Shown here one piece after another: positions 20,862 through 61,416 of a stretch of 64,000 nucleotides of DNA. Positions within the stretch are counted from its first letter, which is position 1; each line of letters starts with the position of its first letter. The position numbers were made by a program, and so were the translations under genes. The notes below the pieces were generated by a model that ran no database searches, was not told the DNA's origin, and saw nothing but the letters and a program-made list of their open reading frames with translations. Where the stretch lies: the NCBI GenBank assembly GCA_041584475.1, contig JBFHDX010000007.1, forward strand, positions 248 to 64,247, read 5' to 3'. The stretch comes from Alphaproteobacteria bacterium. Its GTDB lineage: Bacteria; Pseudomonadota; Alphaproteobacteria; UBA8366; JADFVY01.

Positions 20862-20862
20862 G

Positions 20863-24248: not shown

Positions 24249-24260
24249 CGCGCCGGCGCC

Positions 24261-24288
24261 GATTCCACGCACGTGGATGACGTACTAG
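24261..24288 (-). repeat. dispersed intergenic repeat, copy C (5' module only, inverted orientation)
   Basis: The reverse complement reads CTAGTACGTCATCCACGTGCGTGGAATC. Its TAG is the stop codon of the minus-strand COQ9-like gene. Confidence 0.7.
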
Positions 24289-24926
24289 CGCCGTTCGGCC
24301 CGGAACGATCCGAAGGGTCGGGCCATGCCCGCTGCGCGTTCGCGCAGCCGCCCGCTGGCGCGGCCGAATCGGGCGGCGTCGGCGAGCCGGCGGTCGAGGA
24401 AGTCCCAGCTGTCGGCGAAACCGTCGGAGCGGTCGCCCAGCCAGTACAGCACGGTGGCGCCGTACACGGCCGCGAGCAGCCCTCGCTTGCTGTAGAAATT
24501 CCAGTCGGTGGCCGTATCCCCCGCGGCGCGCCAGATCGCGTCGACGGTGCGATAGAGGCAGCGCGCGCCAAGCGCCGCGTGCTGCGGCATCGACAGGAAG
24601 GCAAGTGCACGCTGCACCGCCTCCCGATGCGGCGCCGCCTGCTCGAGGCGCATGCGGACCGCCGCCTTGACGCGCGCCGTCGTGCCCGCGGATTCGAGGT
24701 CCTGCTTTGCCAGCGCCTCCAGCATCCGGCGGTCGGACAGCCGGCTGAAATGCTCGACCATGTCGGTCGGACCGTGCGGGAACGCCCGGTGCGCATCGTC
24801 CATGCCGACGCCGGCATCGCCGGCCGCGCGCCGCAGCGCCGTCAGCGTCCAGCCGTCGAACGGCACGTGCGCGACCACGGCGTCGAGCAGACGATCGCGC
24901 ATCCCGTCGAGGTCGGCCGCCGTCAT
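24285..24926 (-). CDS. COQ9-family / rpsU-divergently-transcribed protein
   Basis: This is the C-terminal 213 codons of the artefactual 503-aa ORF. It starts at MTAADLDGMRDRLLDAVVAHVPFDGWT and sits in the conserved position near rpsU. Its ATGA overlaps the def stop. Confidence 0.8.
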   Translation of the reverse strand: MTAADLDGMRDRLLDAVVAHVPFDGWTLTALRRAAGDAGVGMDDAHRAFPHGPTDMVEHFSRLSDRRMLEALAKQDLESAGTTARVKAAVRMRLEQAAPHREAVQRALAFLSMPQHAALGARCLYRTVDAIWRAAGDTATDWNFYSKRGLLAAVYGATVLYWLGDRSDGFADSWDFLDRRLADAARFGRASGRLRERAAGMARPFGSFRAERR

Positions 24927-25507
24927 ACCGCCTTCGCCTCGGGTCGCGCCTCGGGGTCGCCGATGGCCGCCCGCATCCGCTCCGGCATGCCGTGGCGCAA
25001 CTCCTCCTGGAACATCAGCAGCGACAGGTCGGTCATGCGCTGCGGGTAGAGGATGCCGTCGAGATGGTCGCATTCGTGCTGTACGACCCGGGCGTGGAAA
25101 TCGGCCGCTTCGCGCTCGATCCGCTCGCCCGTCGGCGTCAGCCCGGCATAGCGGATGCGCGTGAAGCGGGGCACGGCGCCGACCAGCCCGGGCACCGACA
25201 GGCAGCCCTCCCAGCCGAGCGCCGTCTCGTCGGTCAGGGGCTCGATCTCGGGGTTGATCAGCACGGTCGGCGGCTGCGGCGCCGCGGGCTCGGCGTCGCC
25301 GGCCCGCTCTTCGGGGACGTGGAAGACGACGACGCGCAGCGGAACGTGGACCTGCGGCGCGGCAAGCCCGGCGCCGTCCGCGTCCCGCATCGTCTCGATC
25401 ATGTTGCGCACCAGCGCCTGGATCTGCGGTGCCGTCGGGTCGTCGACCTCGGCGGCGCGGCCGCGCAGGACGGGATGGCCCATGCGGGCGATTTTCAGAA
25501 TGGCCAT
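24923..25507 (-). CDS. def: peptide deformylase
   Basis: The sequence MAILKIARMGHPVLR...GAGLAAPQV...EGCLSVPG...QHECDHLDG carries all three PDF motifs. Confidence 0.9.
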   Translation of the reverse strand: MAILKIARMGHPVLRGRAAEVDDPTAPQIQALVRNMIETMRDADGAGLAAPQVHVPLRVVVFHVPEERAGDAEPAAPQPPTVLINPEIEPLTDETALGWEGCLSVPGLVGAVPRFTRIRYAGLTPTGERIEREAADFHARVVQHECDHLDGILYPQRMTDLSLLMFQEELRHGMPERMRAAIGDPEARPEAKAV

Positions 25508-25719
25508 GGACGGCAATATGGGGCCTTGGGGACGGACGGTAAAGGCCGCGGAACCGTGCCCGTCCGCGCGCCGAAAATGTGCGCCCGCGGGCGGTTTCGG
25601 CCGCTTGCCGCCCTTCACAATCCGCACCGGTTATGCTATAAGCCGCCTGCCGTCGGGCCGGAGGGCCGGTTCGGGACAGGCGGTTTGTCCCCGCGCAGCA
25701 TGGAAAGGATGAGCACAAG

Positions 25720-25923
25720 GTGCAGGTAACCGTTCGCGACAACAACGTCGACCAGGCGCTCCGCGCGCTGAAGAAGAAGATGCAGCGCGAAGGCATCTTC
25801 CGCGAGATGAAGCTTCGCCGCTCCTACGAAAAGCCGTCGGAGCGCCGGGCGCGCGAAAAGGCGGAGGCGGTGCGCCGCTATCGCAAGCTGCTGCGCAAGC
25901 GCAAACAGCGCGAGGGGTTCTGA
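25720..25923 (+). CDS. rpsU: 30S ribosomal protein S21
   Basis: 67 aa, starting at a GTG: [31 protein letters not shown]... Confidence 0.95.
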
Positions 25924-27838: not shown

Positions 27839-29983
27839 ATGACAACAAGAACGAGCAAGACCGTGGAGACGACACTGCAGGACAGCACACGGCGCGCGCG
27901 CCTCAGCTGGTCGCTGATGCTGTTCGCCGGGTTGCTGATCGGCGTCCTGCTTGTCGTCGGCGTCACCATCGGAGGCGGCCTCAATTCGATCCACAAGAGG
28001 GCAGAAGATACCACGCGAGCCACGATTCCCGAGTCGGTTGAACAAAACCGTCATGCCTTGATCGCCGAGCAAATCGCCCACTACGCCGAACAGGTGCGGT
28101 TCGGCCGCGAGGCGACGTCCCGCGAGAGAGCGTTCAAATCGGTCTCCGCCTTGAGCGATGAGCTGGCTGCCGGCGTGAACCCCATGCTTCGGCCCGACGT
28201 GGAGCGGGCGGCGGAACTGATCCGCGAGGCCTTCGAGGCGGCCCAGACCGCACATTCGGCGAACAGCCGAATCGCCAGCAAGCTCGTTGATGCGGAGAAT
28301 CTGATCGGTGAAATCGACGACGGTCTGTCGGCGATCATGGACGACAGCGCCTATCGTGCGCTGGAGTTGGTCGAGGAGACCGACGAACTGCTGGACGCCG
28401 CCCAGTCCGGAAGCGCGATTTCAAGCGTCCGGAGGGTGTTCGGCGGCGTTCGGGAAACAATTGGCTTCAACACGGCAAGCCAGCAGCTGCTCGTCGCGCT
28501 GCGCGCCTTGCGCAACATCCTCCTCCAGGTGCGCACACTCGACAGCCGAACGGCGCTGGATGCCGCCGAAAGCAGGTTTGGGGCGCTCTACAAACGCCTT
28601 GATGTCCTTGTCGAGAACCTGCCCCGGGCCGGCACGGCCGCCAGCGATTTCGAGTATCTGCCGGAACAGGTGGAGCAGTTTGCGAGTTTCAATGACATCT
28701 TTGAGATGCGCAGAACGGCGATCGAGTCGCACACTGCGGCCAACGTGCAGGTCGAGGCGGCCTTGGAGATCCTTGCGAATCTGCGGGAAAATCTCTCGGC
28801 CGACGCCGCGGACAAGGCGATTTCCAGCGTCGGCGAGATTGCCGCGGACGCGGAGCGGATCATGACCATCAGCATCGCGCTGATGTCGGTTCTCGGGCTC
28901 GTCACGGTCCTCGCGGTTGTCCGCGTGCGCCAGGAGGCGCTGCTCCCATTGTCCGTCGCGAGCCGCGCGCTCGACGGGCTCAGGCGCGGCGATTTCGACG
29001 TCGACATTCCGCGATCCCGTTTCGAGGAGTTTGCCTCGATACGCGAATCGCTGCACAGCTTCCGCAATGCGCTCGCCGATCGCGAGCGGCTGGAGAAGGA
29101 GCAGGCGGCCCGCAAGCAGGAGGCAGAGGAGGAGAAGCGCCGCATCATGCTCGAGCTCGCCAACGGGCTCGAGGGCAGCGTCCAGGCGGTGGCGTCGGGC
29201 GTTTCCGCCGCCGCCGTCCAGATGGAGACCGCGGCGTCGCGGATGTCGACGACCGCGGACCAGACGCGCAGCCAGGCGGCCACGGCCGCATCCGCCTCGA
29301 CCGAGGCGAGCGCCAGCGTCGAGGGCGTGGCGACGGCGGCCGAGGAGCTGTCGAACTCGATCGAGGAGATCCTGCGTCAGGTCGACCGCTCGACGCAGAT
29401 CGCCAACCGCGCGGCGGGCGAGGCCGAGCGCACCAACAGTGCGGTCGACGGGCTGGTCGACGCGGCGCGCGAGATCGGCGAGGTCGTCGAGCTGATCTCC
29501 GAGATCGCCGGCAAGACCAACCTGCTGGCACTGAACGCGACCATCGAGGCGGCGCGCGCCGGCGAGGCGGGCAAGGGCTTCGCCGTCGTCGCCAACGAGG
29601 TCAAGACGCTCGCCAGCCAGACGGCCAAGGCGACCGATCAGATCGGCAAGCGCATCGAGGCGATGCGCGGCGTCACCGGCGAGGCGGCCGACGCGATCCG
29701 CAAGATCGCCGACACCATCGTCGAGATGAACGAGATCTCGACGACGGTCGCGTCCGCCATGGAGGAGCAGGGCGCAGCGACCAAGGAGATCGCCCGCAAC
29801 GCGATGGCGGTGACGGGCAGCGCGAAATCCTCGAACGAGAGCATCGGGCTTGTCGCGAGCGCCGCCGACGATGCCGGCGCGGCGGCCGGGCAGGTGCTGG
29901 GCGCGGCCGGCGACCTGAGCAAGCAGTCGCGCGAGCTCAAGGAGGCGGTCGAGGGCTTCCTCTCCCGCATCCGCGCCGCCTGA
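27839..29983 (+). CDS. methyl-accepting chemotaxis protein with a ~310-aa helical periplasmic domain
   Basis: 714 aa with two TM segments, a HAMP domain (LDGLRRGDFDVDI) and the conserved signalling hairpin ([38 protein letters not shown]). Confidence 0.9.
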   Translation: MTTRTSKTVETTLQDSTRRARLSWSLMLFAGLLIGVLLVVGVTIGGGLNSIHKRAEDTTRATIPESVEQNRHALIAEQIAHYAEQVRFGREATSRERAFKSVSALSDELAAGVNPMLRPDVERAAELIREAFEAAQTAHSANSRIASKLVDAENLIGEIDDGLSAIMDDSAYRALELVEETDELLDAAQSGSAISSVRRVFGGVRETIGFNTASQQLLVALRALRNILLQVRTLDSRTALDAAESRFGALYKRLDVLVENLPRAGTAASDFEYLPEQVEQFASFNDIFEMRRTAIESHTAANVQVEAALEILANLRENLSADAADKAISSVGEIAADAERIMTISIALMSVLGLVTVLAVVRVRQEALLPLSVASRALDGLRRGDFDVDIPRSRFEEFASIRESLHSFRNALADRERLEKEQAARKQEAEEEKRRIMLELANGLEGSVQAVASGVSAAAVQMETAASRMSTTADQTRSQAATAASASTEASASVEGVATAAEELSNSIEEILRQVDRSTQIANRAAGEAERTNSAVDGLVDAAREIGEVVELISEIAGKTNLLALNATIEAARAGEAGKGFAVVANEVKTLASQTAKATDQIGKRIEAMRGVTGEAADAIRKIADTIVEMNEISTTVASAMEEQGAATKEIARNAMAVTGSAKSSNESIGLVASAADDAGAAAGQVLGAAGDLSKQSRELKEAVEGFLSRIRAA

Positions 29984-42689: not shown

Positions 42690-44840
42690 TCAGCCGGCGC
42701 GGACGCCCGACAGGAAGCGCTCCACTTCCTTGCCCAGGACATCGGCCTGCTCGCTGAGCCCGGTTGCCGCCCGCAGCACCTCTTCGGCCGTGGCGCCGGT
42801 CTCTCCCGCGGCCCGGGCGACGTCCTCGATATTCTGCGAGACGCTGTGCGTGCCCTTCGCGGCCTCCTGGACGCCGCGCGCGATTTCCTTGGTTTGCGCG
42901 CTCTGCTCCTCGACCGACGAGGCGATCGTCGCGGCGATTTCGCTGATCTCGTGAATGATGTCGAGCACCCCGGCAATCGCCTCTGCGGTGCCGCGCGTCT
43001 CGGTCTGGATGGCGGTGATCTGGGCGGCGATCTCGTCGGTCGCCTTTGCCGTCTGGTTGGCGAGGTTCTTCACCTCCTGGGCGACCACCGCGAAGCCCCG
43101 CCCGGCCTCGCCCGCCCGCGAGGCCTCGATCGTCGCGTTCAGGGCAAGAAGGTTCGTCTGCCCGGCGATCTCGCTGATGACGTCGACGATTTCGCCGATG
43201 CGCTGAGCCGAGCCGGTAAGCCCCTTGACCGCCTGTTCCGTGTCGCGGGCCCGTTCCACGGCCTTTCCGGCGATCTTCGAGGATTGCACGGCCTGGCGCC
43301 CGATCTCGCCGATCGAAGCGTCGAGCTCCTCGGTCGCGGTCGCCGCCGTCTCGACGTTCGCGCTGGCCTCCTCGGAGGCCGCCGAGACGTTGGCTGACTG
43401 GCGGTTGCTCCGCTCCGCGGCGGACGACATCTGCTGCGCGGCGTCGCGCATGCGCTGCGCCGATGCCAGGACGTCGCGGGCAAGCGCCTGGACCTGCGAT
43501 TCGAACCGGTCGGCAAGGTCGAGGACGGCGCGGCGTTTCTCTTCCTCGGTGCGCTGCTTGCTCAGCTCCTGCTCCGCGTGCATGCGCTCCTTCTCGATCG
43601 CGTTGTCCTTGAACACGGCGAGCGCGCGCGCGATGGCGCCGATTTCGTCTACCCGCGACAGCGATGGCACTTCGATCGACACGTCGCCCTCGGCCAGCCG
43701 GCCCATCGCCCTGGTCATGCGGCTCAAGGGCTGGGTCACGCGGCGCTGCACGACCCATATCGCCGCGAATATCCCGAGCAGGCCGAGCACCAGCAGCTCC
43801 AGATCGACGCGGATGTTGCGCGAGCCGCGGGCAACCGCCCGCTCCGCAAGTTCGGACGACACGCTGCTTGCCAGCTCCGACAGTTTCCGGACCGCCTCGG
43901 CCGCGACAACCGACTGCGAGCGCCAGGCCTCCGCCGAGACGGGATAGGCAGTGCCGTCGATACCGGCTGCCAGAACGGCCTCGCGCAGCTCCGAGAACTC
44001 GCCGAAATACTGGCGTTCCGCCTCGCTGATGGCGCGGACGACGGATTGATCGGCGTCCGGATGCAGGGCGTAGGCGCGCAGCATCGTCCAGCCTTCCATG
44101 ATGCGGCCGCGGCATTCGCCGATGCGCTGCAGCTGCCTCGGCGTAAGGGCGCGGCCGCCGGAGATCGCGTTGGCGATCTCGGTGCGCTCGCGCGCCGTGA
44201 ATTCCTGGATGCTCCACGTCGCCTGCTTCAGCATCGTGTTGGCCTGGATCCAGGCGAAGGGATGCGCCATGTCGAGGCGGCGGTCGGCGCGAAACGTGAT
44301 CGCCGCCCGGTAGTCGCCCAGCGCCGCAAGCAGCGCGCTGACGGCGGTCGACCAGTCGTCGAGCAGGCCACCGCCGGGCAAGGCGCTGCCGGTGCGGAAG
44401 GCCTCATCGACGCGGCGCCGCACGTCCTCGACATTGGCATGTCGGCTGCGCACGGCATCCAGAAGGGCCGTCCGGCTGCCGACGACATAGTCGGTTTTGC
44501 GCCCCTGCTCCAGGATTCGCCGCACGCCGTCGCGCGCGGCCTCTCGATGACGCTCGACGGAGCGCAGCAGATCCCGCCGCATCGCTCCGGAGCGGGCCAG
44601 CGTCGCAAGGCCGATTTCGATCGCTTCGCGCTCACCGGCCAACGCGCTGGATGTTTCGAGCACGAGGTCGGCGGCGCGATTGCTCCAGGCGGCGGCGACC
44701 GCGTTCTCGCGATTCTTGTAAGCTTCGACGGCGAGACCGATCGTGTAGTAGAGAATGATCACGCTCAGCACGAAGATCAGAACGAACAGCAAATGCCGTA
44801 TCGTTGCGGCCTTTCGCAGAGTCGTCCAGATCGTCGTCAT
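42690..44840 (-). CDS. methyl-accepting chemotaxis protein
   Basis: 716 aa with an N-terminal TM, a ~300-aa helical sensor region, a second TM, HAMP ([13 protein letters not shown]) and the signalling hairpin ([38 protein letters not shown]). Confidence 0.9.
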
Positions 44841-54288: not shown

Positions 54289-55671
54289 TCAGCAGCGTGG
54301 CCGGAGGATAACCCTGAGCCCGTGGCGTGGTCGCAGGGTGATCGCCGGCTCCGGCGTCACCGTCTGCCCGGCGACCGGTACCACGCGGTAGCGGCCGGCG
54401 ATCATGGCGAGGATCAGCTGCCCTTCCATCATGCCGAAGCGCTTGCCGAGGCAGTTGCGCGGGCCGCCGCCGAACGGGATGTAGGCGTAACGCGACCGTT
54501 GGGCGACGGCCTGCGGCGAGAACCGCTCGGGGTCGAAGCGTTCGCTGTCGGGCCAGAATTCCGGGTGACGGTGCAGCACGTAGGGCGAAATCATCACGGT
54601 GGTGCCGGCCGGGACGTCGGTGTCGCCGATCCGGTCGTCGGCGATCGCGGCGCGCGAAATCGTCCATACCGGCGGGTAAAGACGCATCGCCTCTTCGAAG
54701 ACCATGCCGGTATAGCGCAGTTTCGGGAGGTCGGCGAAGGTCGGCGGGCGAAAGCGGAGGACCTCGTCGATCTCGGCGTGCAGCCGTGCCTCGATATCGG
54801 GGTGCTGCGCCAGCAGGTGCCAGGTCCAGGCCAGCGCCACGGCGGTCGTCTCGTGACCGGCGACGAGGAACGACAGCAACTGGTCGCGCAGCAGTTCGCG
54901 GCCGCTCCGTGTCGACGGGTCACAAGCGTCGATCAGCATGTCGAACAGGTCGGCCGATGCCCGGGGCCGCGCGACACGCTCGTCGATCAGGCCATAGATG
55001 ACGCGGTCGATCTCCTCGACCGCGTCGCGGTAGCGCCGGTTGATACGCTTCAGCAGGCCGTGCGACAGCAGCCCGCCGGTCCAGACCGACTGTTCGGCGT
55101 GGCGGAACACCAGCGTCACCGCGTCGTGGAAGGCGTCGTAGCGACGTTCCTCCATGTGCAGGCCGAGCAACGCGCTGGCGACGCCCTCGAACGTGACCCG
55201 CATCATCTCGCGCGCGACGTCGAAATCGCCGTTGGCGTCGTCCGCCGACGGCCAGTGCTGCATCCGCCGCTCGGTCGCCGCGACGATCTGCCGGGCCATC
55301 TCGTCGAACCTGTGGCCCGAGAAGGCCGGCGTCGCCGATCGCCGCTGACGCACCCACTCGTCGCCCTCGCTGACGAAAATTCCGCGGCCGAGCAGCGGCT
55401 TGAGAGGCTCGTAGAACTTGCTCTTCCGGTAGTTCGTGTGGTTGTCCTGCAGGACGTGCTTGATGTCTTCAGGGCGCGCCAGCATGACGATCGTATCGAG
55501 ACCGACCCGAAACCAGACGACGTCGCCATACTTTCGCCGTGCCTTGACGAAATAGCCGAGGGGGTCCGAGCGCACGGCGCGCGCGACCCCGAAGATCGGC
55601 ACGCCGCGCGGACCCGGTCTCGCAACCCGCGTGTCGCGCCGACGCGTTTTCGCCTTGACCGGCGCTACCAT
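54289..55671 (-). CDS. cytochrome P450 (E-class, CYP4/CYP102-like features)
   Basis: 460 aa with the PGP hinge (RPGPRGVPIFG), the I-helix AGHETT, ExxR (EEAMR) and the haem loop FGGGPRNCLGKRFG. Confidence 0.9.
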   Translation of the reverse strand: MVAPVKAKTRRRDTRVARPGPRGVPIFGVARAVRSDPLGYFVKARRKYGDVVWFRVGLDTIVMLARPEDIKHVLQDNHTNYRKSKFYEPLKPLLGRGIFVSEGDEWVRQRRSATPAFSGHRFDEMARQIVAATERRMQHWPSADDANGDFDVAREMMRVTFEGVASALLGLHMEERRYDAFHDAVTLVFRHAEQSVWTGGLLSHGLLKRINRRYRDAVEEIDRVIYGLIDERVARPRASADLFDMLIDACDPSTRSGRELLRDQLLSFLVAGHETTAVALAWTWHLLAQHPDIEARLHAEIDEVLRFRPPTFADLPKLRYTGMVFEEAMRLYPPVWTISRAAIADDRIGDTDVPAGTTVMISPYVLHRHPEFWPDSERFDPERFSPQAVAQRSRYAYIPFGGGPRNCLGKRFGMMEGQLILAMIAGRYRVVPVAGQTVTPEPAITLRPRHGLRVILRPRC

Positions 55672-55916
55672 CCTCCGGACCCGCGGTCGTTCCCGCTCGA
55701 ACGCGATGATTTCTCGGCCCGACGCGCCGGATCGAACGGGATCACCATGCAGTCGCTGCGTTTCCCCTCGTAGACCTTCATCGCCTCGGCGGCGACGCCG
55801 ATGAAGTGGGCCGGAAAAAGCCAGCCATGGGCGACCGCCTCGTCATACAGATATCGGAGGGCCTGGCGAAACGCCTCCGGGGTGCATTCGGTGAACGCCC
55901 CGTCGTCTTGCTCCAT
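55665..55916 (-). CDS. small hypothetical protein between luxI and the P450 gene
   Basis: 83 aa. Third-position GC is high and consistent with coding. Its stop overlaps the P450 start by 7 nt. I recognise no family. Confidence 0.5.
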   Translation of the reverse strand: MEQDDGAFTECTPEAFRQALRYLYDEAVAHGWLFPAHFIGVAAEAMKVYEGKRSDCMVIPFDPARRAEKSSRSSGNDRGSGGW

Positions 55917-55973
55917 GATTTCGTTCCTTGCTGTACGGTCCTCGTTTCGGATTTCCCTCGCCGTCGCGGTTTG

Positions 55974-56612
55974 CTACGCAGCCTGCGTTACGAGCCACGG
56001 CGCGCTGCGGATCACCGAGCCGGTTATGCCGTTGGCGCGCCGGATCTTTTCGAGCGCCTGCTCATTGATGTAGAAGCGGCCGGCCAGGGTCACGGTCCCG
56101 TCGATCAGGTGCCGCCGACTCTGCCATTGCGGGTGGCAGCCGATGCGCGGCAGCAGCCGCGCGATACGGCCGTCGTAGACTGTAACCACCTCGCGCAGGC
56201 CCAGCGCGAGACCGAACTCCACGACGGCACAGAAGATCTCCGCGGTCACCTTGCCCGGCGTTCCGAGGCCGTTCCTGCGGTGCCTGCTGCAGTCGACGGC
56301 GAAACGGCTGCCCTCCCAGATTTTCGGGTTCGCCGGGGCGGGGTCGCCGTCGAGCAGCTGCGGAAAGACGTCGCGCAGCATGTAGGGCCCGACGGTCGGC
56401 AGCATGCGCCACGTGCCGACAAGCTCGCCGTTGTCGTTATTGGCCAGTAGGTAGAGCGGATTGAGATCGTCGAAGCTGTCGTGCTCCTTGTCGCCGCGCG
56501 TCGAGACGCGCCACGCGAGGCGTTCGTGGAACACCCGGTAGCGCAAGCGGAACATCGCCTCGAGCATGGCTGGATAATTGTTCAGTTCGCTCCGCGACAC
56601 GACGTCGATCAT
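55974..56612 (-). CDS. luxI: acyl-homoserine-lactone synthase (LuxI family)
   Basis: The start is at MIDVVSRSELNNYPAMLEAMFRLRYRVFHERLAWRV. It also has DSFDD, PTVGPYMLRDVFPQLL and WEGSRFAVD, which are LuxI/TraI-type motifs. The symbol is family-level only. Confidence 0.9.
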   Translation of the reverse strand: MIDVVSRSELNNYPAMLEAMFRLRYRVFHERLAWRVSTRGDKEHDSFDDLNPLYLLANNDNGELVGTWRMLPTVGPYMLRDVFPQLLDGDPAPANPKIWEGSRFAVDCSRHRRNGLGTPGKVTAEIFCAVVEFGLALGLREVVTVYDGRIARLLPRIGCHPQWQSRRHLIDGTVTLAGRFYINEQALEKIRRANGITGSVIRSAPWLVTQAA

Positions 56613-56657
56613 CTGCCCCTCCGCGCTTGACCACGCGCTGCGATTGGAGCCGCAAAT

Positions 56658-56689
56658 CGAAATCGGGGCATTCCCCCGAAATCGGGGGG
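56658..56689. promoter_or_regulatory. two direct copies of CGAAATCGGGG spaced 19 bp, upstream of luxI (candidate LuxR-type operator)
   Basis: The copies lie at 56658-56668 and 56677-56689. An inverted third copy (CCCCCGATTTCC) is at 57723-57734, upstream of luxR. Confidence 0.35.
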
Positions 56690-56739
56690 TTGCCCGCACG
56701 TCCTCTCTCTTCGTGGATGGGCCCGCTAAGTGCCGGGAA

Positions 56740-57474
56740 TCAGGGTACGATTATGCCCAGGATGATGGCTTTGACGACCGCGTGCGTCTTGCTGTAGACG
56801 CCCAGCTTGCGCGCCGCGGACTTCAGATATTCGGCGACGGTTTCCTGCGACAGCGACAGGATCTCCGAGATCTCCCAGACCGTCTTGCCGCGCGACGACC
56901 AGAGGAGGCATTCGCGCTCGCGCGGGGCAAGCAGAATGGGCTCCTCGCCGCGTGCCATCAGGACGTGATCGACCACCGACTGGTGACTGTACATGGCCGT
57001 CAGATGAATCGAATGCCGTTGTGCATCGCAGAACCGCTCGAAGTCGTGCGGCGCCATGTCGGCGACGAAATTGAATGTCGCGAGGCACTGGCCCGGGCCA
57101 TGGGCCGGCACCGTGATACCCTGGCTCAGCCCGAACTCTCCGGCTTCGTTGAAGAATTTCTCCCATTTCGGGTTCTTGCGCCGGCCGTGCCGCAGCGACG
57201 GCCACGAGAAGGGCAGCACGGTCGCCGAAGCGAGCGGCGCGATCGGGTCGATGTTGACGTATTCGTGCTCGATATAGTGGTTGACCCATTCGCTCGGATA
57301 ATTCGACAGGAAGAAACGCTTCCGCGGACCTTCCGGCGGCCGCACCACGTGGTACGTGAATTTCTCGAAGCCGAGGCCCCGCACCTGGGCTTCGATGGCC
57401 TGATAGATGTCGTCAAGGGAACGGGCCGCCCGAATCGACTCGATGAACTGATCCAGTTGTTGCATCGAAGACAT
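56740..57474 (-). CDS. luxR: LuxR-family autoinducer-binding transcriptional regulator
   Basis: The start is at MSSMQQLDQFIESIR (alternative start at 57516). It has an AHL-pocket pattern (YPSEWVNHYIEHEYVNIDPI) and a C-terminal HTH (LAPRERECLLWSSRGKTVWEISEILSLSQETVAEYLKSAARKLGV). The symbol is family-level only. Confidence 0.9.
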   Translation of the reverse strand: MSSMQQLDQFIESIRAARSLDDIYQAIEAQVRGLGFEKFTYHVVRPPEGPRKRFFLSNYPSEWVNHYIEHEYVNIDPIAPLASATVLPFSWPSLRHGRRKNPKWEKFFNEAGEFGLSQGITVPAHGPGQCLATFNFVADMAPHDFERFCDAQRHSIHLTAMYSHQSVVDHVLMARGEEPILLAPRERECLLWSSRGKTVWEISEILSLSQETVAEYLKSAARKLGVYSKTHAVVKAIILGIIVP

Positions 57475-57722
57475 CGTCGGCACCTCCGCCGCAGATGTAC
57501 GCAACGATTCCGTCATGGCAGCCACTACACCCTGGTATCCGGTCGCAGCGCGCTCTTCGCGCTCTGGACGCCACCCCGCGTCGTGCACGTCTGGAGGCCT
57601 TCCGGTCTCGTGCGCAGCGGTCGGTCGTTCGCGGTAACGCGCCGAACGACAAGGTCCGCGGGCCGGTAAGCCCACTCACTGCCCGTACTATCGATCAATT
57701 CACAATGCCCTTGCCGAAGCGT

Positions 57723-57734
57723 GCCCCCGATTTC
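57723..57734. promoter_or_regulatory. third (inverted) copy of the GAAATCGGGG motif, upstream of luxR
   Basis: CCCCCGATTTCC on the plus strand, which is GGAAATCGGGGG on the minus strand. Confidence 0.3.
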
Positions 57735-57914
57735 CACCCGTCTTGGCGGGTACTGCCATATTTTTGGCGCGACCGTGCATCGATTGCAAGAAACTATCGC
57801 CTTTCGTGTACCATCCCGAAGTACGTACGCGCCGCCGCCGGTCGGCCATGCGACGACCTCGGCGCCGCCGCGTGGCGCCGTGATCCGCGCAGGCCGCAGC
57901 GTCGCGGCGTCGAA

Positions 57915-59339
57915 TCAGCGTTGCGTCAGCTTCAGTTCGATGCGCCGGTTGCGCGCGTACGCGTCCGGCGTGTTGGTGGGATCGAGCGGCTGGTACTCGG
58001 CATAGCCTGTCGCCGCGAGGTTGCGCGCCGGTATTCCCTGCAGCTGCAGAAAGCGAACGACCGAGATCGCCCGGGCCGTCGACAGCTCCCAGTTGGACGG
58101 AAACTGCTCAGTCCGGATCGGATTCCTGTCGGTATGGCCGTCGACCTGCAGGATCCAGTCGATGTCCTTGGGAATCCGGCCGGCGATGTCGATCAGGGTG
58201 CGCGCCAGCGCCCCCAGCTGCTCCTTGCCGGCCTGGCCGAGCTCGGCTTCCCCGGAAGCGAACAGCACCTCGGACTGGAACACGAAGCGGTCGCCGACGA
58301 TACGGATGTCCTGACGGTCGCCGAGCACATCGCGCAGGCGGCCGAAGAATTCGGAGCGGTAGCGGGACAGTTCCTGCACCTTGCTGGCGAGTGCCGCATT
58401 GAGCCGCGATCCGAGGTCGGCGATCTGCGCTCTCTGCTCCTTGTCCCTCGCTTCCGAGGCCTCCAGCGCCTCGTTGAGCGCGGCGATCTGGGCGCGCAGC
58501 TGCGACAGCTGACGGTTCAGGAGGGCCAGCTGGGCCTTGGCCGCGGCCGAGATCTCGCGCTCGCGCAGCAGCTCCTCCTCTCCGGTCTTCGTCTTTCGCA
58601 TCATCTGCTGCAGCTGTTGTTCCAGCTCCTCGCGGTACGCCTGCATGGCGATGATATCCTGGCGCAACTCGGCAAGCTCCCTGAGCTGCAGCTCGACCGT
58701 CTCGCGCTCCGTCGTGACCGTCTTGTTCGCCTCCTCCAGCTCCTTCATCCGTCGCGCCAGCTCGGCCGCGCTGTCGGCGTAGGCTTGCTCGCTGCGCGCC
58801 AGCGCCTCCTCGGTCAGGCGGAGCTTCTGCGTCGCCTCCTCGAGCGCCTTCAAGCGCTCTTCCAGCGTCGCCTGCGTCGACGTCAGCTGGCCGCTGCGCT
58901 CGGCGAGCAGGGCCTCGGAGGCCTGCAGCGCCGCGGCCAGACGGCTGCGCTCGGCATCGGAGGAATCGATGCGGTCCTGCAGCTCGGCGACCTGCGACGT
59001 GAGCCGGTCGCGGAGACCGCGCAGCGAGCCCAGCTCGCCGGCGAAGCGGTCTCGTTCGGCGAGCGTGCTCTGGAGTTCCGCGGAGAGCTGGGCGACCGAC
59101 GACTGCAAATCGGCGTTGGCCTCCTGCTCGAGGGCCAGCTGGTTCGCCAGTTCCGCGACCTGCCGGTTGAGCCGGTCGAGCGCCTCGTCGCGCCCGCTGA
59201 GCGCCTCGCTCAGGTAGAACTGGGCGACAACGAAGATCATCAGCAGGAAGATGATGACCATCAGCAGCGTCGCCAGCGCGTCGACGAATCCGGGCCAGAT
59301 GTCGACGGCGTTGCGGCCCCGGCGGGAGAGCGCGGCCAT
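57915..59339 (-). CDS. MotB-like protein: N-terminal TM plug, ~300-aa coiled coil, C-terminal OmpA-type peptidoglycan-binding domain
   Basis: 474 aa. It has WPGFVDALATLLMVIIFLLMIF (MotB-type TM with Asp), a long Q/E/L/A/R heptad-like region, then GHTDRNPI...NWELSTARAISVVRFL. Confidence 0.85.
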   Translation of the reverse strand: MAALSRRGRNAVDIWPGFVDALATLLMVIIFLLMIFVVAQFYLSEALSGRDEALDRLNRQVAELANQLALEQEANADLQSSVAQLSAELQSTLAERDRFAGELGSLRGLRDRLTSQVAELQDRIDSSDAERSRLAAALQASEALLAERSGQLTSTQATLEERLKALEEATQKLRLTEEALARSEQAYADSAAELARRMKELEEANKTVTTERETVELQLRELAELRQDIIAMQAYREELEQQLQQMMRKTKTGEEELLREREISAAAKAQLALLNRQLSQLRAQIAALNEALEASEARDKEQRAQIADLGSRLNAALASKVQELSRYRSEFFGRLRDVLGDRQDIRIVGDRFVFQSEVLFASGEAELGQAGKEQLGALARTLIDIAGRIPKDIDWILQVDGHTDRNPIRTEQFPSNWELSTARAISVVRFLQLQGIPARNLAATGYAEYQPLDPTNTPDAYARNRRIELKLTQR

Positions 59340-59342
59340 GGC

Positions 59343-60488
59343 TCAGGCCTTCTTCGCAGGCTGTCCGGAGGCAGCGGCGACGGTGCGGGCGAGCAAGCGG
59401 ATCTCGCCGCGCAGCTCCTCGAGCGTCTGCGCGCGGCCGGACGATGCCTCCTCGGCGACGCGGGTCAGCGTCTTGTCCATGTTGCGGACCGCCTGGCGGA
59501 TCGCCGGATCGCCGCCGACCGTCTCGGCAAGCTTGCCCAATACCGGTTTGAGCTCCGCCTGCGCCTCCGCCAGCTTGACCAGCAGATGCTGTTCCGAGCG
59601 CATCTGGTCGCCGAGCGCGCTCAACTTTTCGGTGAGTTCCAGCATGTGCCGGTCGGTTGCGCCGCGGTTGGTTTCCGCCTTGCCCATCGTCCGTTCGAGC
59701 CTTTCGAGGCTGTCGGCGGTCTTCTCGAGCAGCGCCTGGATGTAGGCCGGGACCGAGCCCTCGCCCTCGGCGACGATGCCGCCGCTGAGCCGGGTCAGGC
59801 CCGACAGCCAGTCCTCCAGCTCGTTGTAGAAGCGGTTCTGGGCGTGGCCGGCGACCAGGTCCAGGATGCCGAGGGCGAGCGAACCGGCGAGGCCGAACAG
59901 CGACGAGCTGAACGCCGTGCCCATGCCGCCGAGCGGCGATTCGAGGCCGGCCTTGAGGCTCTCGAACATCGCCGTCATGTCGCCGCCGACGCTCAGTTCG
60001 CCGATCACCTGGCCGATCGCGCTGACCGTCTGCAGGAGGCCCCAAAAGGTGCCGAGCAGGCCGAGGAAGATCAGCAGTCCGATCATGTAGCGGGAATATT
60101 CGCGACGCTCGTCGAGCCGCGTCGAGATGCCGTCGAGCAGGGTGCGCATCGCCACCGTCGACAGGCTGAGGCGGCCGCGCGCACGCTCGCTGCGCTCGCC
60201 GAGCATCGTCGCCATCGGCGACAGCAGGCGCGGCACGGCGTCGCTCGAAACCGAGGCCTGGTCGCGCTGGAAGCTCTCGATCCAGTTCACCTCGGGCGCG
60301 AGCGAGCCGACCATTCGCAGCGTGTGCAGCACGCCCATCACGAACACGAAGAGGATGATCCCGTTGATCACCACGTTGGCCATGAAGGCGTCGATCAGGT
60401 CGCCGTAGATCGTCGCGGCGCCGATGCCGGCGATGATGAACCCCAGGATTAGGATCATCCGGGCAAGGAAGCCGCTGGGTCTCGTCAT
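59343..60488 (-). CDS. MotA/TolQ/ExbB proton-channel family protein with a ~170-aa helical C-terminal tail
   Basis: 381 aa with four TM segments and the MotA_ExbB core (IFLGLLGTFWGLLQT...GMGTAFSSSLFGLAGSLALGI). Its stop lies 3 nt before the MotB-like start. Confidence 0.85.
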   Translation of the reverse strand: MTRPSGFLARMILILGFIIAGIGAATIYGDLIDAFMANVVINGIILFVFVMGVLHTLRMVGSLAPEVNWIESFQRDQASVSSDAVPRLLSPMATMLGERSERARGRLSLSTVAMRTLLDGISTRLDERREYSRYMIGLLIFLGLLGTFWGLLQTVSAIGQVIGELSVGGDMTAMFESLKAGLESPLGGMGTAFSSSLFGLAGSLALGILDLVAGHAQNRFYNELEDWLSGLTRLSGGIVAEGEGSVPAYIQALLEKTADSLERLERTMGKAETNRGATDRHMLELTEKLSALGDQMRSEQHLLVKLAEAQAELKPVLGKLAETVGGDPAIRQAVRNMDKTLTRVAEEASSGRAQTLEELRGEIRLLARTVAAASGQPAKKA

Positions 60489-60543
60489 GAAATGCTCCTC
60501 AACTCGATGCCGTGCATGACCGTGCCCGGAGTCACCGGCTGCG

Positions 60544-61416
60544 TCATTGTGGCGGCACCTTCACGTCGACCCGATTTCTCGGTGTTTCCTCGGTTCGGGA
60601 CCCGAGCGCACGCACGTCGATGCGGGTGCTCAGAACGCCGCGGTCCACGAGGTAGCTGCGCACGTCGCGGGCGCGCAGCAGCGACAGGCGCCGGGCCTCG
60701 CTTTCCGTCGGCGAAGGCGTCTCCGCGTAGCCAACGACCTCGATGCGCGTCGACGGGTTTTCGCGCAGCCATGCCGCCAGCCCGTCGAGCGCCGCCCTCG
60801 CCGTATCGGGCAGTTCCGTCGCCTCCGCGGCGTAGCTGATACGGATGTCGCCGGGCCGGGCGAGCGGTTCGACCACCGCATCCGTCGCGCCACTGGTATC
60901 GTCGGAATCCGGCGGAAGTGTGGCCAGTTGCGGCGATCCGGGCGGATTCGACAGGTCGGGCGGAGCCGGCGGCGTGGCGGCCCGCGCGGCAGGCGGGGCG
61001 GCTGCAGGCACGCCCGGCGCGGTGCTCGGGACCGGCGCAGCTGCCGGCGCGGCGGGAGGCGGCGCGAGCGACGGCGGCGGCGGGGACGCGAGTTTCGGCG
61101 GCGGCGGCGGGGACGCGAGCCGCGGCGGTGGCGGCGGGGCCGTCAGCCTTTCCGGCGGTTGTTCCGGCGGCGTTGCCGCCAGCCGCGCATCCTGCGGCGT
61201 GGCCGACATCCAGCGCTCGAATTCGTGCGGCGTCACCAACAGCCGCGATGCGGGCGCGCTCGGCGGCGGGTCCTGCAGGTCCTGCGTCGCCGTCTGTGCG
61301 GCCGCCGGCCCGCCGGCGACGAGCATCGGCACGGCGAGCACGGACATGGCGGCGCGGCTGCGCCAGCGACGGCCCGCGGGCCGCCGCACGCGCTTCTGGC
61401 TGTCCCTCTGTGTCAT
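60544..61416 (-). CDS. secreted proline-rich protein with a degenerate OmpA-like C-terminal domain
   Basis: This is ORF 60544..61497. I prefer the start at MTQRDSQKRVRR...MSVLAVPMLVAGGPAAAQ (61416). It has ~150 aa of P/A-rich sequence with RLASPPPPP repeats. The C-terminus reads IEVVGYAE...ARRLSLLRARDVRSYL. Confidence 0.7.
   Translation of the reverse strand: MTQRDSQKRVRRPAGRRWRSRAAMSVLAVPMLVAGGPAAAQTATQDLQDPPPSAPASRLLVTPHEFERWMSATPQDARLAATPPEQPPERLTAPPPPPRLASPPPPPKLASPPPPSLAPPPAAPAAAPVPSTAPGVPAAAPPAARAATPPAPPDLSNPPGSPQLATLPPDSDDTSGATDAVVEPLARPGDIRISYAAEATELPDTARAALDGLAAWLRENPSTRIEVVGYAETPSPTESEARRLSLLRARDVRSYLVDRGVLSTRIDVRALGSRTEETPRNRVDVKVPPQ
61051..61140 (-). repeat. ~27-bp tandem repeats inside the proline-rich coding region
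   Basis: GGCGGCGGCGGGGACGCGAG units on the plus strand encode (R/K)LASPPPPP x ~3. Confidence 0.7.

What the first reader, a model, noticed from the sequence alone, without database searches (positions are those of the whole stretch)
57915..61416. Orphan three-gene MotA/TolQ/ExbB-type proton-channel module with a giant coiled-coil MotB-like partner and a proline-rich OmpA-like protein
Seen in the sequence: three co-directional genes lie with gaps of 3 nt and 55 nt.
- Gene 1 (60544-61416) encodes a signal peptide, about 150 aa of Pro/Ala-rich spacer with RLASPPPPP repeats, and a degenerate OmpA-like domain.
- Gene 2 (59343-60488) is a 4-TM MotA_ExbB channel core with an additional ~170-aa helical cytoplasmic tail.
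- Gene 3 (57915-59339) has a MotB-type TM plug with the conserved Asp (PGFVDALATLL), about 300 residues of uninterrupted heptad-like sequence, and then a canonical OmpA_C peptidoglycan-binding domain.
Established knowledge: MotAB/PomAB, ExbBD-TonB, TolQRA, GldLM/PorLM, AglRQS and ZorAB are ion-driven 5:2-type motors, each coupled to a distinct output.
Inference: this module fits none of them. There are no fli/flg/che motor genes adjacent, and no ExbD/TolR, TonB/TolA/TolB/Pal or ZorC/D/E. The flanking genes are suhB-efp and a quorum-sensing locus. The long spacer sits on the B (stator-anchor) subunit rather than the A subunit. At about 0.15 nm per residue, a continuous 300-aa helix would be about 45 nm, longer than a typical periplasm. 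That implies either a folded hairpin or a structure reaching the outer membrane or beyond. The second, proline-rich PG-binding protein could be the outer partner. This is my best candidate for an uncharacterised PMF-powered envelope machine.
Basis: partly seen in the sequence, partly recalled or inferred. Interest (0 to 1): 0.72.

Follow-up and report, generated by a model that had tools for sequence, protein, structure and literature searches.

The report
Conserved non-flagellar MotAB-like envelope motor
The genes are real and encode a proton-channel protein and a cell-wall anchor, often with a third wall-binding protein; they are a widely conserved, apparently unstudied relative of the flagellar-stator, Tol/Ton and Zorya motors, and the anchor carries a rigid periplasmic stalk whose length varies more than four-fold between species, almost always in whole heptads.

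Summary
In detail: three co-directional minus-strand genes with the described architectures.

The word "orphan" is wrong. The A-B pair (59343-60488, 57915-59339) is a core-genome module. B follows A in 73/73 related loci from other species. It usually lies in thiE-efp-suhB-(gene 1)-A-B-ABC transporter-rpmE synteny, and the same synteny holds in Sinorhizobium meliloti. B passes an NCBIfam equivalog named only "peptidoglycan-binding protein". Pipelines call A "MotA".

Gene 1 is optional (46/72 loci).

A has an ExbB/TolQ-type channel helix with an invariant Thr (250/250) and a constant cytoplasmic coiled-coil tail of about 150 aa. B has an invariant transmembrane Asp, a true heptad coiled coil and a MotB-type peptidoglycan-binding domain.

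New here: the distance from the Asp to the end of the stalk ranges from 167 to 727 residues, yet equals 6 mod 7 in 17 of 20 distinct lengths. This indicates a continuous, phase-locked dimeric rod of about 23 to over 100 nm (44 nm here).

It is not a flagellar stator, a Tol/Ton motor or a Zorya defence system. The best reading is an uncharacterised, housekeeping, wall-anchored 5:2-type proton motor. Its output is unknown. I found no paper on it.

The parts
57915..59339 (-). Gene B: MotB-like anchor subunit, 474 aa (member of NCBIfam NF006543 / PRK09039.1-2, 'peptidoglycan-binding protein')
   Evidence: ORF. NF006543 scores 502 bits against a cutoff of 305. It lies directly after A on the same strand in 73/73 related loci with room downstream.
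59214..59300 (-). B residues 14-42: single transmembrane helix, IWPGFVDALATLLMVIIFLLMIF, with invariant Asp20 (codon 59280-59282)
   Evidence: Kyte-Doolittle peak at 21-39. D20, W15, G17 and F18 are invariant in 45 homologues. The motif is present in 118 of the ~120 listed B homologues.
58323..59207 (-). B residues 45-339: continuous heptad coiled coil, about 295 aa and about 44 nm if straight. The two ends are conserved and the middle varies in length.
   Evidence: AlphaFold2 predicts helices 15-250 and 255-339. The 3.5-residue power is 5.51 against a shuffle maximum of 1.25. The distance from the Asp to the YRSEFF motif equals 6 mod 7 in 17/20 distinct lengths over 167-727 residues.
57918..58313 (-). 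B residues 343-474: MotB/PomB-type OmpA-like peptidoglycan-binding domain (GHTD...SNWELS..RA...NRRIE)
   Evidence: Pfam OmpA, E = 7.9e-16. hhalign to E. coli MotB residues 156-262 gives probability 96.6%. Foldseek finds the MotS, MotB and PomB periplasmic domains at E down to 5e-11.
59343..60488 (-). Gene A: MotA/ExbB/TolQ/ZorA-superfamily channel subunit, 381 aa
   Evidence: ORF. The top Foldseek PDB hits are ZorA 8vvn_D, TolQ, ExbB and MotA. PADLOC ZorA1 gives E = 2.9e-12. More than 8000 homologues of about 380 aa exist.
60027..60083 (-). A residues 136-154: channel helix motif IGLLIFLGLLGTFWGLLQT, with invariant Thr147
   Evidence: It aligns to TolQ 139-159 (Thr145) and ExbB 136-160 (Thr148). 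G143, G146, T147 and G150 are invariant in 250/250 sequences; in the next helix F193 and G199 are 250/250 and S196 is 249/250.
59346..59846 (-). A residues 215-381: cytoplasmic helical coiled-coil tail of constant length. A conserved E(I/L)RLLARTIA motif lies about 10 residues from the C-terminus.
   Evidence: AlphaFold2 predicts helices 246-323 and 328-373. The 3.5-residue power is 2.89 against a shuffle maximum of 1.18. The distance from FYNELEDW to the C-terminal motif is 144-153 residues in most homologues.
60544..61416 (-). Gene 1: secreted Pro/Ala-rich OmpA-domain protein, 290 aa. It is an accessory partner, present upstream of A in 46/72 loci.
   Evidence: ORF and gene calls. Pfam OmpA scores 50.8 bits. 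It is absent in S. meliloti and in the Rudaea-labelled MAG loci.
61297..61416 (-). Gene 1 residues 1-40: predicted cleavable signal peptide (arginine-rich N-region, hydrophobic core, AAA|Q)
   Evidence: Read directly from the sequence. Homologues have non-conserved hydrophobic regions ending in AxA|Q, which is typical of cleaved signal peptides and unlike a conserved TonB/TolA-type anchor.
60847..61284 (-). Gene 1 residues about 45-190: Pro/Ala-rich spacer, including the 27-nt x 2.7 tandem repeat at 61068-61139
   Evidence: Composition is P 30% and A 18%. Tandem Repeats Finder score 109.
60589..60831 (-). Gene 1 residues about 196-276: OmpA-like domain (GYAE...RRLSLLRA...NRVDV). The key Arg is kept; Asp is replaced by Glu.
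   Evidence: The Pfam OmpA match covers profile positions 3-84 of 98. It is not closely related to B's domain (BLASTP not significant).

Best explanation
A and B form a vertically inherited, housekeeping, non-flagellar member of the 5:2 ion-driven motor superfamily. I infer the A5B2 stoichiometry; I did not test it.

B most likely dimerises through an unbroken parallel coiled coil. The coil runs straight out of its transmembrane helix and ends in a MotB-type peptidoglycan-binding dimer, so B acts as a stiff, torque-bearing anchor to the cell wall. The stalk is about 44 nm here and about 23 to over 100 nm across relatives.

A surrounds the B helices. Protons passing between B-Asp20 and A-Thr147 (and probably Ser196) would turn the A ring around the wall-fixed B dimer. 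The only part of A that could deliver an output is its constant cytoplasmic coiled-coil tail of about 150 residues, which ends in a conserved motif. I therefore infer that the complex works like an inverted Zorya core: long on the periplasmic side and short on the cytoplasmic side. It would couple or report the state of the inner membrane-wall interface to an unlinked cytoplasmic partner.

Gene 1 is a lineage-restricted, secreted, wall-binding accessory protein, not a core part.

Shown here: the anatomy, the conservation, the synteny and the heptad phase-locking. Inferred: the stoichiometry, proton use, rotation and the output.
For: Anatomy:
- ORFs and domains.
- The AlphaFold2 model of A matches only 5:2 A subunits in the PDB.
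- A's channel helix aligns to the Thr-bearing helix of TolQ and ExbB, and Thr147 is invariant in 250/250 sequences down to about 36% identity.
- B's Asp20 is invariant.
- B's C-terminal domain is MotB/MotS/PomB-like by sequence and by fold.

Coiled coil:
- Helical prediction and heptad power 29 standard deviations above shuffles.
- The distance from the Asp to YRSEFF equals 6 mod 7 for 12/16 and 17/20 distinct lengths between 167 and 727 residues. A sub-clade sits at 2 mod 7, the classical +4 stutter.
- Steps of a single heptad (167/174, 188/195, 258/265/272, 300/307/314) fit a continuous parallel coil better than a hairpin.

Unit and inheritance:
- B is adjacent in 73/73 loci. A-B gaps range from -4 to 69 nt, and a ribosome-binding-like site lies inside the end of A.
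- Synteny is thiE-efp-suhB-(gene 1)-A-B-ABC transporter-rpmE in Rhodospirillales and thiE-rgsF-suhB-A-B-ABC transporter-rpmE in S. meliloti (44% and 57% identity).
- Rhizobiaceae orthologues are common.

Background: dimeric coiled coils as torque anchors are discussed in PMC9389320. The ZorAB precedent for a wall-anchored motor with a cytoplasmic tail as output is PMC11946911.
Against: - No multimer model or experiment supports the 5:2 stoichiometry.
- A does not reach the Pfam or NCBIfam cutoffs (20 bits against 22.9; ZorA_4 20.7 bits against 500), and a sequence profile of A finds no solved 5:2 subunit.
- The AlphaFold2 model of A has only moderate confidence (pLDDT 68), and the Foldseek E-values are weak (about 4e-3).
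- No partner for the tail is encoded near A-B in any of the 80 loci, so the output is a guess.
- A stalk two to eight times longer than the distance from inner membrane to wall has no obvious geometry for a simple anchor.
- Heptad-preserving indels are expected for any long coiled coil. They prove continuity, not torque transmission.
- The literature search covered only open-access PMC and bioRxiv, so a characterisation in a subscription journal could have been missed.
Confidence: 0.6

Rival explanations
1. It is an accessory or alternative flagellar stator (a MotAB paralogue), as automated annotation says ('flagellar motor protein MotA', 'chemotaxis protein MotB').
For: Source names. B's peptidoglycan-binding domain is closest to MotS/MotD/PomB. 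A has four predicted transmembrane segments like MotA. Most hosts are flagellated; this is general knowledge and was not tested here.
Against: - hhalign of A against E. coli MotA gives probability 5% and aligns the wrong helix.
- No NCBIfam MotA model hits A at E <= 0.1.
- The loop between the second and third transmembrane segments is only about 75 aa and carries no recognisable torque-generating domain.
- A's channel helix is of the ExbB/TolQ type.
- No flagellar gene lies in the window or next to the pair in the related loci.
- S. meliloti has a separate, well-studied motA/motB/motC set (established knowledge).
- A rigid 44-nm stalk replaces MotB's flexible linker.
Confidence: 0.05
2. It is a Zorya-like anti-phage sensor: a ZorAB core whose effectors are encoded elsewhere.
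For: PADLOC ZorA1 E = 2.9e-12 and ZorB3 E = 6.6e-21. The top Foldseek hit is ZorA from a type I ZorAB complex. The overall logic is shared: a wall-anchored B plus a cytoplasmic coiled-coil tail on A.
Against: - NCBIfam ZorA_4 scores 20.7 bits against a cutoff of 500.
- No ZorC/D/E-like gene lies in the window or in the neighbourhoods examined.
- The pair sits at a fixed core-genome position shared by Rhodospirillales and Rhizobiales, unlike the patchy, island-borne distribution of defence systems.
- The tail is about 150 aa against 507 aa in ZorA. ZorA has three transmembrane helices, and ZorB has no linker at all.
- No homologue was found on true plasmids. The phage collection was not searched.
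Confidence: 0.05
3. It is a Tol/Ton-like energiser. A-B would power gene 1, a Pro-rich TonB/TolA-like transducer that reaches the wall or outer membrane.
For: A's channel helix is ExbB/TolQ-like. Gene 1 has a Pro-rich spacer like TonB and a folded C-terminal domain. In some relatives gene 1 overlaps suhB and precedes A.
Against: - Gene 1 has a variable, cleavable signal peptide (AxA|Q), not a conserved membrane anchor that could dock into the motor.
- It is absent from 26/72 loci and from S. meliloti.
- B carries its own wall-binding domain and does not resemble TolR (hhalign probability 3%).
- No TonB, TolA, TolB or Pal gene lies nearby.
Confidence: 0.1
4. It is mainly structural: a static inner membrane-to-wall tether or periplasmic scaffold. 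The channel would be vestigial or only regulatory, with no sustained rotation.
For: - The stalk is long, of variable length, and wall-anchored.
- No output partner is encoded nearby.
- The context is housekeeping.
- Many Alphaproteobacteria lack Braun's lipoprotein and use other tethers (established knowledge).
Against: - The residues that carry protons in homologous motors are absolutely conserved: B-Asp20; A-Thr147, Gly143/146/150, Phe193 and Gly199 at 250/250; Ser196 at 249/250. This is hard to explain for a passive tether.
- The constant-length tail with a conserved end motif suggests a specific cytoplasmic interaction.
Confidence: 0.15

Closest known systems
ZorAB core of the Zorya anti-phage system (E. 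coli / Shewanella; PMC11946911; PDB 8qyd, 8vvn)
   Same: - B has a transmembrane Asp and a dimeric MotB-like peptidoglycan-binding domain.
- A is of the non-flagellar type and has a cytoplasmic coiled-coil tail.
- It gives the best PADLOC and Foldseek matches for A.
   Different: - The tail is about 150 aa against 507 aa (70 nm).
- A has four predicted transmembrane segments against three.
- B has a coiled coil of about 295 aa where ZorB has no linker.
- There are no ZorC/D/E effectors.
- It is inherited in fixed core-genome synteny, not in defence islands.
Flagellar stator MotAB / PomAB / MotPS
   Same: - The B subunit has the WxxF(V/A)D transmembrane motif with an Asp, and a PEM/OmpA-type wall-binding domain.
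- A has a four-segment topology.
- The genes are adjacent and probably translationally coupled.
   Different: - A lacks the FliG-contacting cytoplasmic domain and does not align to MotA.
- The channel helix is of the ExbB/TolQ type.
- A rigid heptad stalk replaces the flexible plug-linker.
- There is no flagellar gene context.
ExbBD-TonB and TolQR-TolA
   Same: A's G-x-x-G-T-(F/V)-W-G channel helix with the conserved Thr. It belongs to the non-flagellar 'generic ion transporter' side of the family, in the terms of PMC12505986.
   Different: - B is not ExbD/TolR-like.
- There is no membrane-anchored TonB/TolA partner.
- A has an extra N-terminal transmembrane segment and a C-terminal tail.
GldLM / PorLM (type IX secretion and gliding motor)
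   Same: It is the B-type subunit that carries a long dimeric periplasmic extension (an 18-nm shaft in GldM; PMC9389320), while the A-type subunit has a cytoplasmic helical extension.
   Different: - GldM's shaft is built of globular domains, does not bind peptidoglycan and is thought to rotate.
- Here the shaft is a coiled coil capped by a wall anchor.
- No sequence relationship and no T9SS genes were found.
NCBIfam NF006543 / PRK09039 family, 'peptidoglycan-binding protein'
   Same: B is a member (502 bits against a cutoff of 305). It also passes NF006544 and NF006545.
   Different: The family is a name without a function. Its models are 342-350 aa (one is 627 aa), so this B carries about 130 extra stalk residues.

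Membership tests
NCBIfam NF006543 (PRK09039.1-2) peptidoglycan-binding protein | Whole-protein score above the curated cutoff (305 bits) | tested here: met
   502.2 bits, E = 1.2e-150
5:2 ion-driven motor superfamily (MotA/ExbB/TolQ/ZorA + MotB/ExbD/TolR/ZorB) | B-type subunit with a single transmembrane helix carrying a conserved Asp | tested here: met
   Asp20 is invariant in 45 aligned homologues, and the motif is present in 118 of the ~120 listed B homologues
5:2 ion-driven motor superfamily (MotA/ExbB/TolQ/ZorA + MotB/ExbD/TolR/ZorB) | A-type subunit fold and channel-lining helix with a conserved Thr/Ser | tested here: met
   All top Foldseek hits are A subunits. Thr147 aligns to TolQ Thr145 and ExbB Thr148 and is invariant in 250/250 sequences. 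Pfam MotA_ExbB itself is just below its cutoff (20 against 22.9 bits).
5:2 ion-driven motor superfamily (MotA/ExbB/TolQ/ZorA + MotB/ExbD/TolR/ZorB) | A5B2 stoichiometry and ion-driven rotation | not testable with these tools
   No multimer prediction is available here. It needs AlphaFold-Multimer, cryo-EM and mutants.
Flagellar stator MotAB/PomAB | MotA cytoplasmic torque-generating domain that contacts FliG; membership of MotA families | tested here: not met
   hhalign to E. coli MotA gives probability 5%. No NCBIfam MotA hit. The loop between the second and third transmembrane segments is about 75 aa with low pLDDT.
Flagellar stator MotAB/PomAB | MotB-type peptidoglycan-binding domain | tested here: met
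   hhalign to MotB gives 96.6%. Foldseek finds MotS/MotB/PomB at E down to 5e-11.
Flagellar stator MotAB/PomAB | Genomic or regulon association with flagellar genes | tested here: not met
   None in the 64-kb window or next to the pair in the related loci
Zorya (ZorAB plus effectors) | ZorA family membership | tested here: inconclusive
   PADLOC ZorA1 gives E = 2.9e-12 with no curated cutoff, but NCBIfam ZorA_4 scores 20.7 bits against a cutoff of 500
Zorya (ZorAB plus effectors) | Adjacent effector genes (ZorC/D, ZorE, ZorF/G) | tested here: not met
   No such genes in the window or in the neighbourhoods examined. PADLOC gives no hit for gene 1.
Zorya (ZorAB plus effectors) | Long ZorA tail (about 500 aa) and a linker-less ZorB | tested here: not met
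   The tail is about 150-165 aa. B has a coiled coil of about 295 aa. ZorAB values are from PMC11946911.
Ton / Tol systems | ExbD/TolR-type B subunit | tested here: not met
   hhalign to E. coli TolR gives probability 3%. B ends in an OmpA/MotB domain.
Ton / Tol systems | Membrane-anchored TonB/TolA transducer encoded with the motor | tested here: not met
   Gene 1 has a variable cleavable signal peptide, not a conserved anchor. It is absent in 26/72 loci.
GldLM/PorLM | GldM-type periplasmic domains and T9SS gene context | tested here: not met
   No GldL/GldM or T9SS family matched at significance. The only T9SS-related hit is gene 1's OmpA domain to PorE at 30 bits against a cutoff of 600. 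There is no T9SS neighbour.

The most novel reading that the evidence does not exclude
A-B is a previously unrecognised functional class of 5:2 motor that is part of the alphaproteobacterial core genome. In this reading, the phase-locked periplasmic coiled coil of B is a mechanical element: a lever, torsion bar or tension sensor lying along the wall rather than across the periplasm. The constant cytoplasmic tail of A delivers the output. The machine would couple proton-motive force to a housekeeping envelope process such as wall-membrane spacing, growth-zone mechanics or envelope-stress signalling. Gene 1-type proteins would be clade-specific adaptors.
Probability: 0.3. Interest if true: 0.8.

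Novelty: new variant of a known kind. Interest (0 to 1): 0.6.

Why it matters
Reviews up to January 2026 list five or six functional classes of 5:2 motors: MotAB/PomAB, ExbBD, TolQR, AglRQS, GldLM and ZorAB (PMC9389320, PMC12905483).

This pair would add a housekeeping class that is conserved, in the same chromosomal slot, from Rhodospirillales to Rhizobiales. It is currently mislabelled as 'MotA/MotB' in many of the database entries seen.

It occurs in genetically tractable species such as Sinorhizobium meliloti (1021 B protein CAC47355.1 / UniProt Q92JX6) and in cultured Rhodospirillales. The question 'what does it power?' is therefore directly testable.

The heptad phase-lock over a more than four-fold length range is an unusually clean natural experiment on how a coiled coil links a membrane motor to the cell wall. 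If instead the pair proves to be a passive tether, it would still matter for how bacteria that lack Braun's lipoprotein hold the envelope together.

Tried and rejected
Literature (all 10 searches used):
- Combined terms for the known 5:2 motors; 'PRK09039'; MotAB-like/ZorAB-like/stator-like terms; '5 2 motor' phrases. None returned anything on this family.
- I recalled Caulobacter CrbA as a coiled-coil protein. It is a carboxypeptidase with a SPOR domain. Rejected.
- S. meliloti Rgs polar-growth proteins: none is MotA- or OmpA-like. A and B (which I guessed to be NP_386882/3) do not appear in the held pull-down supplements. RgsF is only a neighbour.
- Magnetospirillum CcfM: the primary paper is not held. 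The protein reportedly links the cytoplasmic magnetoskeleton proteins MamY and MamK, which argues against a periplasmic stalk. Not pursued.
- I guessed that SMc03993, which contains a ChvI-bound fragment (PMC3687685), might be gene A. The locus-tag numbering does not support this, because SMc03994 is ribosomal protein S21. No claim is made.

Computation:
- A sequence profile of A against PDB sequences found only coiled-coil noise.
- The promoter/terminator scan was uninformative in this high-GC DNA.
- Looking up remote representatives gave only unnamed MAG proteins.
- Choosing genes by longest ORF failed because of long antisense ORFs and was replaced by a GC3-based choice.
- The hairpin model for the stalk was considered and disfavoured, because lengths change in single-heptad steps.

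Full report
**1.

The three minus-strand ORFs are at the stated coordinates: B 57915-59339 (474 aa), A 59343-60488 (381 aa) and gene 1 60544-61416 (290 aa). Three independent gene calls on identical contigs from a Rhodospirillales-like MAG (GCA_041634095.1) agree, including the 290-aa start of gene 1.

The A-B gap is 3 nt, with GAAGAAGG just upstream of B's ATG. The gene 1-A gap is 55 nt, with GAGGAG upstream of A's ATG. A 985-aa ORF on the opposite strand across A and B is a high-GC artefact.

**2. What each protein is**

*B.* It matches Pfam OmpA (E = 7.9e-16) and passes the NCBIfam equivalog NF006543 (PRK09039.1-2, 'peptidoglycan-binding protein') with 502 bits against a cutoff of 305. The family is therefore known to databases but has no functional name.

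- The C-terminal domain aligns to E. coli MotB residues 156-262 (probability 96.6%).
- By fold it is closest to the periplasmic domains of MotS, MotB and PomB (E down to 5e-11; sequence level).
- It has one transmembrane helix, IWPGFVDALATLL..., in which Asp20 is invariant.

*A.* It has four hydrophobic segments.

- It falls just below Pfam's MotA_ExbB cutoff (20 against 22.9 bits) and has no NCBIfam family. A profile of 57 homologues finds no solved 5:2 subunit by sequence.
- Its AlphaFold2 model (pLDDT 68) nevertheless retrieves 5:2 A subunits throughout the top of the PDB hit list: ZorA 8vvn_D, then TolQ, ExbB and MotA.
- PADLOC's ZorA1 profile matches at E = 2.9e-12.
- The helix FLGLLGTFWGLL aligns to the Thr-bearing channel helix of TolQ (Thr145) and ExbB (Thr148). 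E. coli MotA does not align meaningfully (probability 5%).
- Across 250 homologues down to about 36% identity, Gly143, Gly146, Thr147, Gly150, Phe193 and Gly199 are invariant, and Ser196 is present in 249 of 250.

*Gene 1.* It has a positively charged N-terminus, a hydrophobic core and AAA|Q. A Pro/Ala-rich spacer follows (P 30%) with a 27-nt x 2.7 tandem repeat. It ends in a bona fide OmpA domain (50.8 bits). Its homologues have non-conserved signal peptides ending in AxA|Q. It is therefore a secreted periplasmic protein, not a TonB/TolA-like membrane-anchored transducer.

**3. The stalk is a real, continuous coiled coil**

AlphaFold2 predicts one helix running from the transmembrane segment to residue 250, a four-residue break, and a second helix over residues 255-339. 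Core-residue periodicity at 3.5 residues over residues 45-335 has power 5.51, against 0.19 +/- 0.19 (maximum 1.25) in 500 shuffles, and the register is largely constant.

The most informative result is comparative. I measured the number of residues between the invariant transmembrane Asp and the conserved YRSEFF motif at the end of the stalk.

- Among database homologues it takes 16 distinct values, of which 12 equal 6 mod 7.
- Among B proteins read from genome loci of other species it takes 20 distinct values from 167 to 727, of which 17 equal 6 mod 7. With a chance rate of 1/7 the probability is about 1e-12.
- A sub-clade sits at 2 mod 7 (198, 254, 261). This is a +4 'stutter' that is itself then kept in phase.
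- The S. meliloti orthologue has 174 residues, also 6 mod 7.
- Lengths differ by single heptads (167/174, 188/195, 258/265/272, 300/307/314). A symmetric hairpin could not absorb such steps, but a continuous parallel coil can.

Both ends of B must be dimers: two helices inside the A ring, and a MotB-type wall-binding dimer. I therefore infer an unbroken parallel dimeric rod. It would be about 44 nm here and about 23 to over 100 nm across the family. That is longer than the distance from inner membrane to wall (established knowledge), so in most species it cannot simply stand upright. I cannot explain this.

In contrast, the cytoplasmic tail of A has a constant length, 144-153 residues between two conserved motifs. 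It also has heptad periodicity (2.89 against a shuffle maximum of 1.18). It ends in a conserved E(I/L)RLLARTIA motif about ten residues from the C-terminus.

**4. It is not an orphan**

- In a library clustered at 50% identity, 525 clusters match at E <= 1e-30 and 2689 at E <= 1e-3.
- In a collection holding one genome per species, 442 matched stretches encode a relative.
- In the 80 best loci from other species, B follows A on the same strand in 73 of 73 loci with room downstream. A gene 1 homologue is directly upstream in 46 of 72. suhB and efp are upstream in 50 of 67.
- A-B gaps range from -4 to 69 nt.
- Independent gene calls on contigs of 0.5 to 7.4 Mb give thiE-efp-suhB-OmpA protein-A-B, then a convergent ABC transporter, then rpmE.
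- In this window the same ABC transporter, rpmE, DUF1465, HSP20 and TrcR genes follow. They come only after an inserted luxR-luxI-P450 segment.

A mislabelled 3.7-Mb 'plasmid' record, which is really the Sinorhizobium meliloti chromosome, shows thiE-rgsF-suhB-A-B-ABC transporter-rpmE. There A is 44% identical, and B is 57% identical over its last 220 residues. No gene 1 is present. Orthologues fill the Rhizobiaceae under the names 'flagellar motor protein MotA', 'MotA/TolQ/ExbB proton channel family protein' and 'hypothetical protein'.

Three MAG loci, two of them labelled Rudaea (a gammaproteobacterial genus), carry A-B alone in a different context. In one sub-clade an unrelated secreted protein of 630-700 aa occupies gene 1's slot.

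The conserved unit is therefore the A-B pair. Gene 1 is a frequent, lineage-restricted accessory.

**5. What it is not**

*Not a flagellar stator.* A lacks any MotA-type cytoplasmic domain or family match. There is no flagellar context in the window or in the related loci. S. meliloti has its own separate, well-studied mot genes (established knowledge).

*Not Tol or Ton.* B is not TolR-like, and there is no anchored transducer.

*Not Zorya.* There are no effector genes. The chromosomal position is fixed. The tail is about 150 aa against 507 aa. ZorB's wall-binding domain is fused to its transmembrane helix without any linker (PMC11946911), whereas B has the longest linker known to me in this superfamily.

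Two reviews list only MotAB/PomAB, ExbBD, TolQR, AglRQS, GldLM and ZorAB as 5:2 motors (PMC9389320; PMC12905483). [quoted passage not shown] Ten full-text searches found no paper on it. The library holds only open-access literature, so this absence is not proof.

**6. How it most likely works**

Shown: the proton-path residues of homologous motors are absolutely conserved in both subunits; the two genes are inseparable; B ends in a wall-binding domain on a rigid, phase-locked dimeric rod; A carries a constant cytoplasmic coiled-coil tail.

Inferred: an A5B2 complex in which proton flow through B-Asp20 and A-Thr147/Ser196 turns the A ring around the wall-fixed B dimer. The stalk takes up the reaction torque; dimeric coiled coils are discussed as torque anchors in PMC9389320. 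The tail would be the output to a partner encoded elsewhere. In effect this is a Zorya-like core turned inside out and recruited to a housekeeping role at the membrane-wall interface.

I give 0.6 to this architectural and mechanistic reading, and much less to any particular cellular role. The main rival is a largely static tether or scaffold (0.15). It is weakened by the invariant channel residues.

**7. Verdict**

However, it is a widespread, database-known, functionally uncharacterised family rather than an orphan, and it is a two-gene rather than a three-gene unit. It is a new variant of a known kind of machine. The heptad phase-lock of the periplasmic stalk is the most striking new observation. 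The presence of orthologues in tractable species makes the open question directly testable. Interest: 0.6.

Noticed in passing
window 54289-57675: luxR (56740-57474), luxI (55974-56699), an 83-aa ORF and a cytochrome P450 (54289-55671) lie between B and the ABC transporter/rpmE. In relatives and in S. meliloti, the ABC transporter and rpmE follow B directly. This quorum-sensing/P450 block therefore looks like a lineage-specific insertion into conserved core synteny.
   Followed up: partly
window 57495-60452 (+): A 985-aa open reading frame runs antisense across A and B. Several other long antisense ORFs occur nearby. They are high-GC artefacts with no coding signature and could mislead a longest-ORF gene caller.
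   Followed up: yes
window 20205-22335 (-): Two adjacent genes have no Pfam match and show the strongest third-position GC bias in the window. One encodes a 218-aa lipoprotein-like protein (LPVSGC) and the other a 490-aa membrane protein.
   Followed up: no
window 27839-29983 (+) and 42690-44840 (-): Two methyl-accepting chemotaxis protein genes. They were the only chemotaxis- or motility-related genes found in the window, and they lie 13-28 kb from the module.
   Followed up: no
L031 (ORF 4), L033, L036 and related loci, directly upstream of A: In one sub-clade the slot held by gene 1 is occupied by an unrelated, conserved, secreted protein of 630-700 aa. It has an acidic low-complexity N-terminus and no OmpA match.
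   Followed up: partly
L090 (CP090106.1, 3077139-3094002): The PLSDB record labelled 'S. meliloti Ak57 plasmid pSymB' is 3.7 Mb and carries rpmE, purEK, thiE and suhB, so it is evidently the chromosome. Four other multi-megabase 'plasmids' of Sinorhizobium and Shinella behave the same way.
   Followed up: partly
L090 5340-6485: In S. meliloti the gene between thiE and suhB, two genes upstream of A-B, is the Sel1-repeat protein RgsF (SMc03995). RgsF is an essential polar-growth and septation factor (PMC7327166). Neither A nor B appears in the held Rgs pull-down tables.
   Followed up: partly
gene 1 homologues in L011, L017, L038, L047, L052, L058, L068, L076 and others: Right after the signal peptide, many gene 1 homologues share a short motif, roughly (V/I)(V/I)IGG...P.VEVN..VLD.LG. 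The window's own clade has SRLxVTPxEFERWL instead. It could be a docking peptide.
   Followed up: no
L080, L081, L083 (7001-9200): Three MAG loci, two labelled Rudaea (a gammaproteobacterial genus) and one labelled only Proteobacteria, carry the A-B pair at 48-49% identity. It lies between an HrpB-like helicase and an isocitrate dehydrogenase-like gene, without efp-suhB or gene 1. This is either horizontal transfer or mis-binning.
   Followed up: partly
window 22490-25923: purE, purK, peptide deformylase and ribosomal protein S21 lie in the same window. purE and purK also lie within 7 kb of thiE-suhB-A-B in S. meliloti, which hints at wider regional synteny.
   Followed up: no
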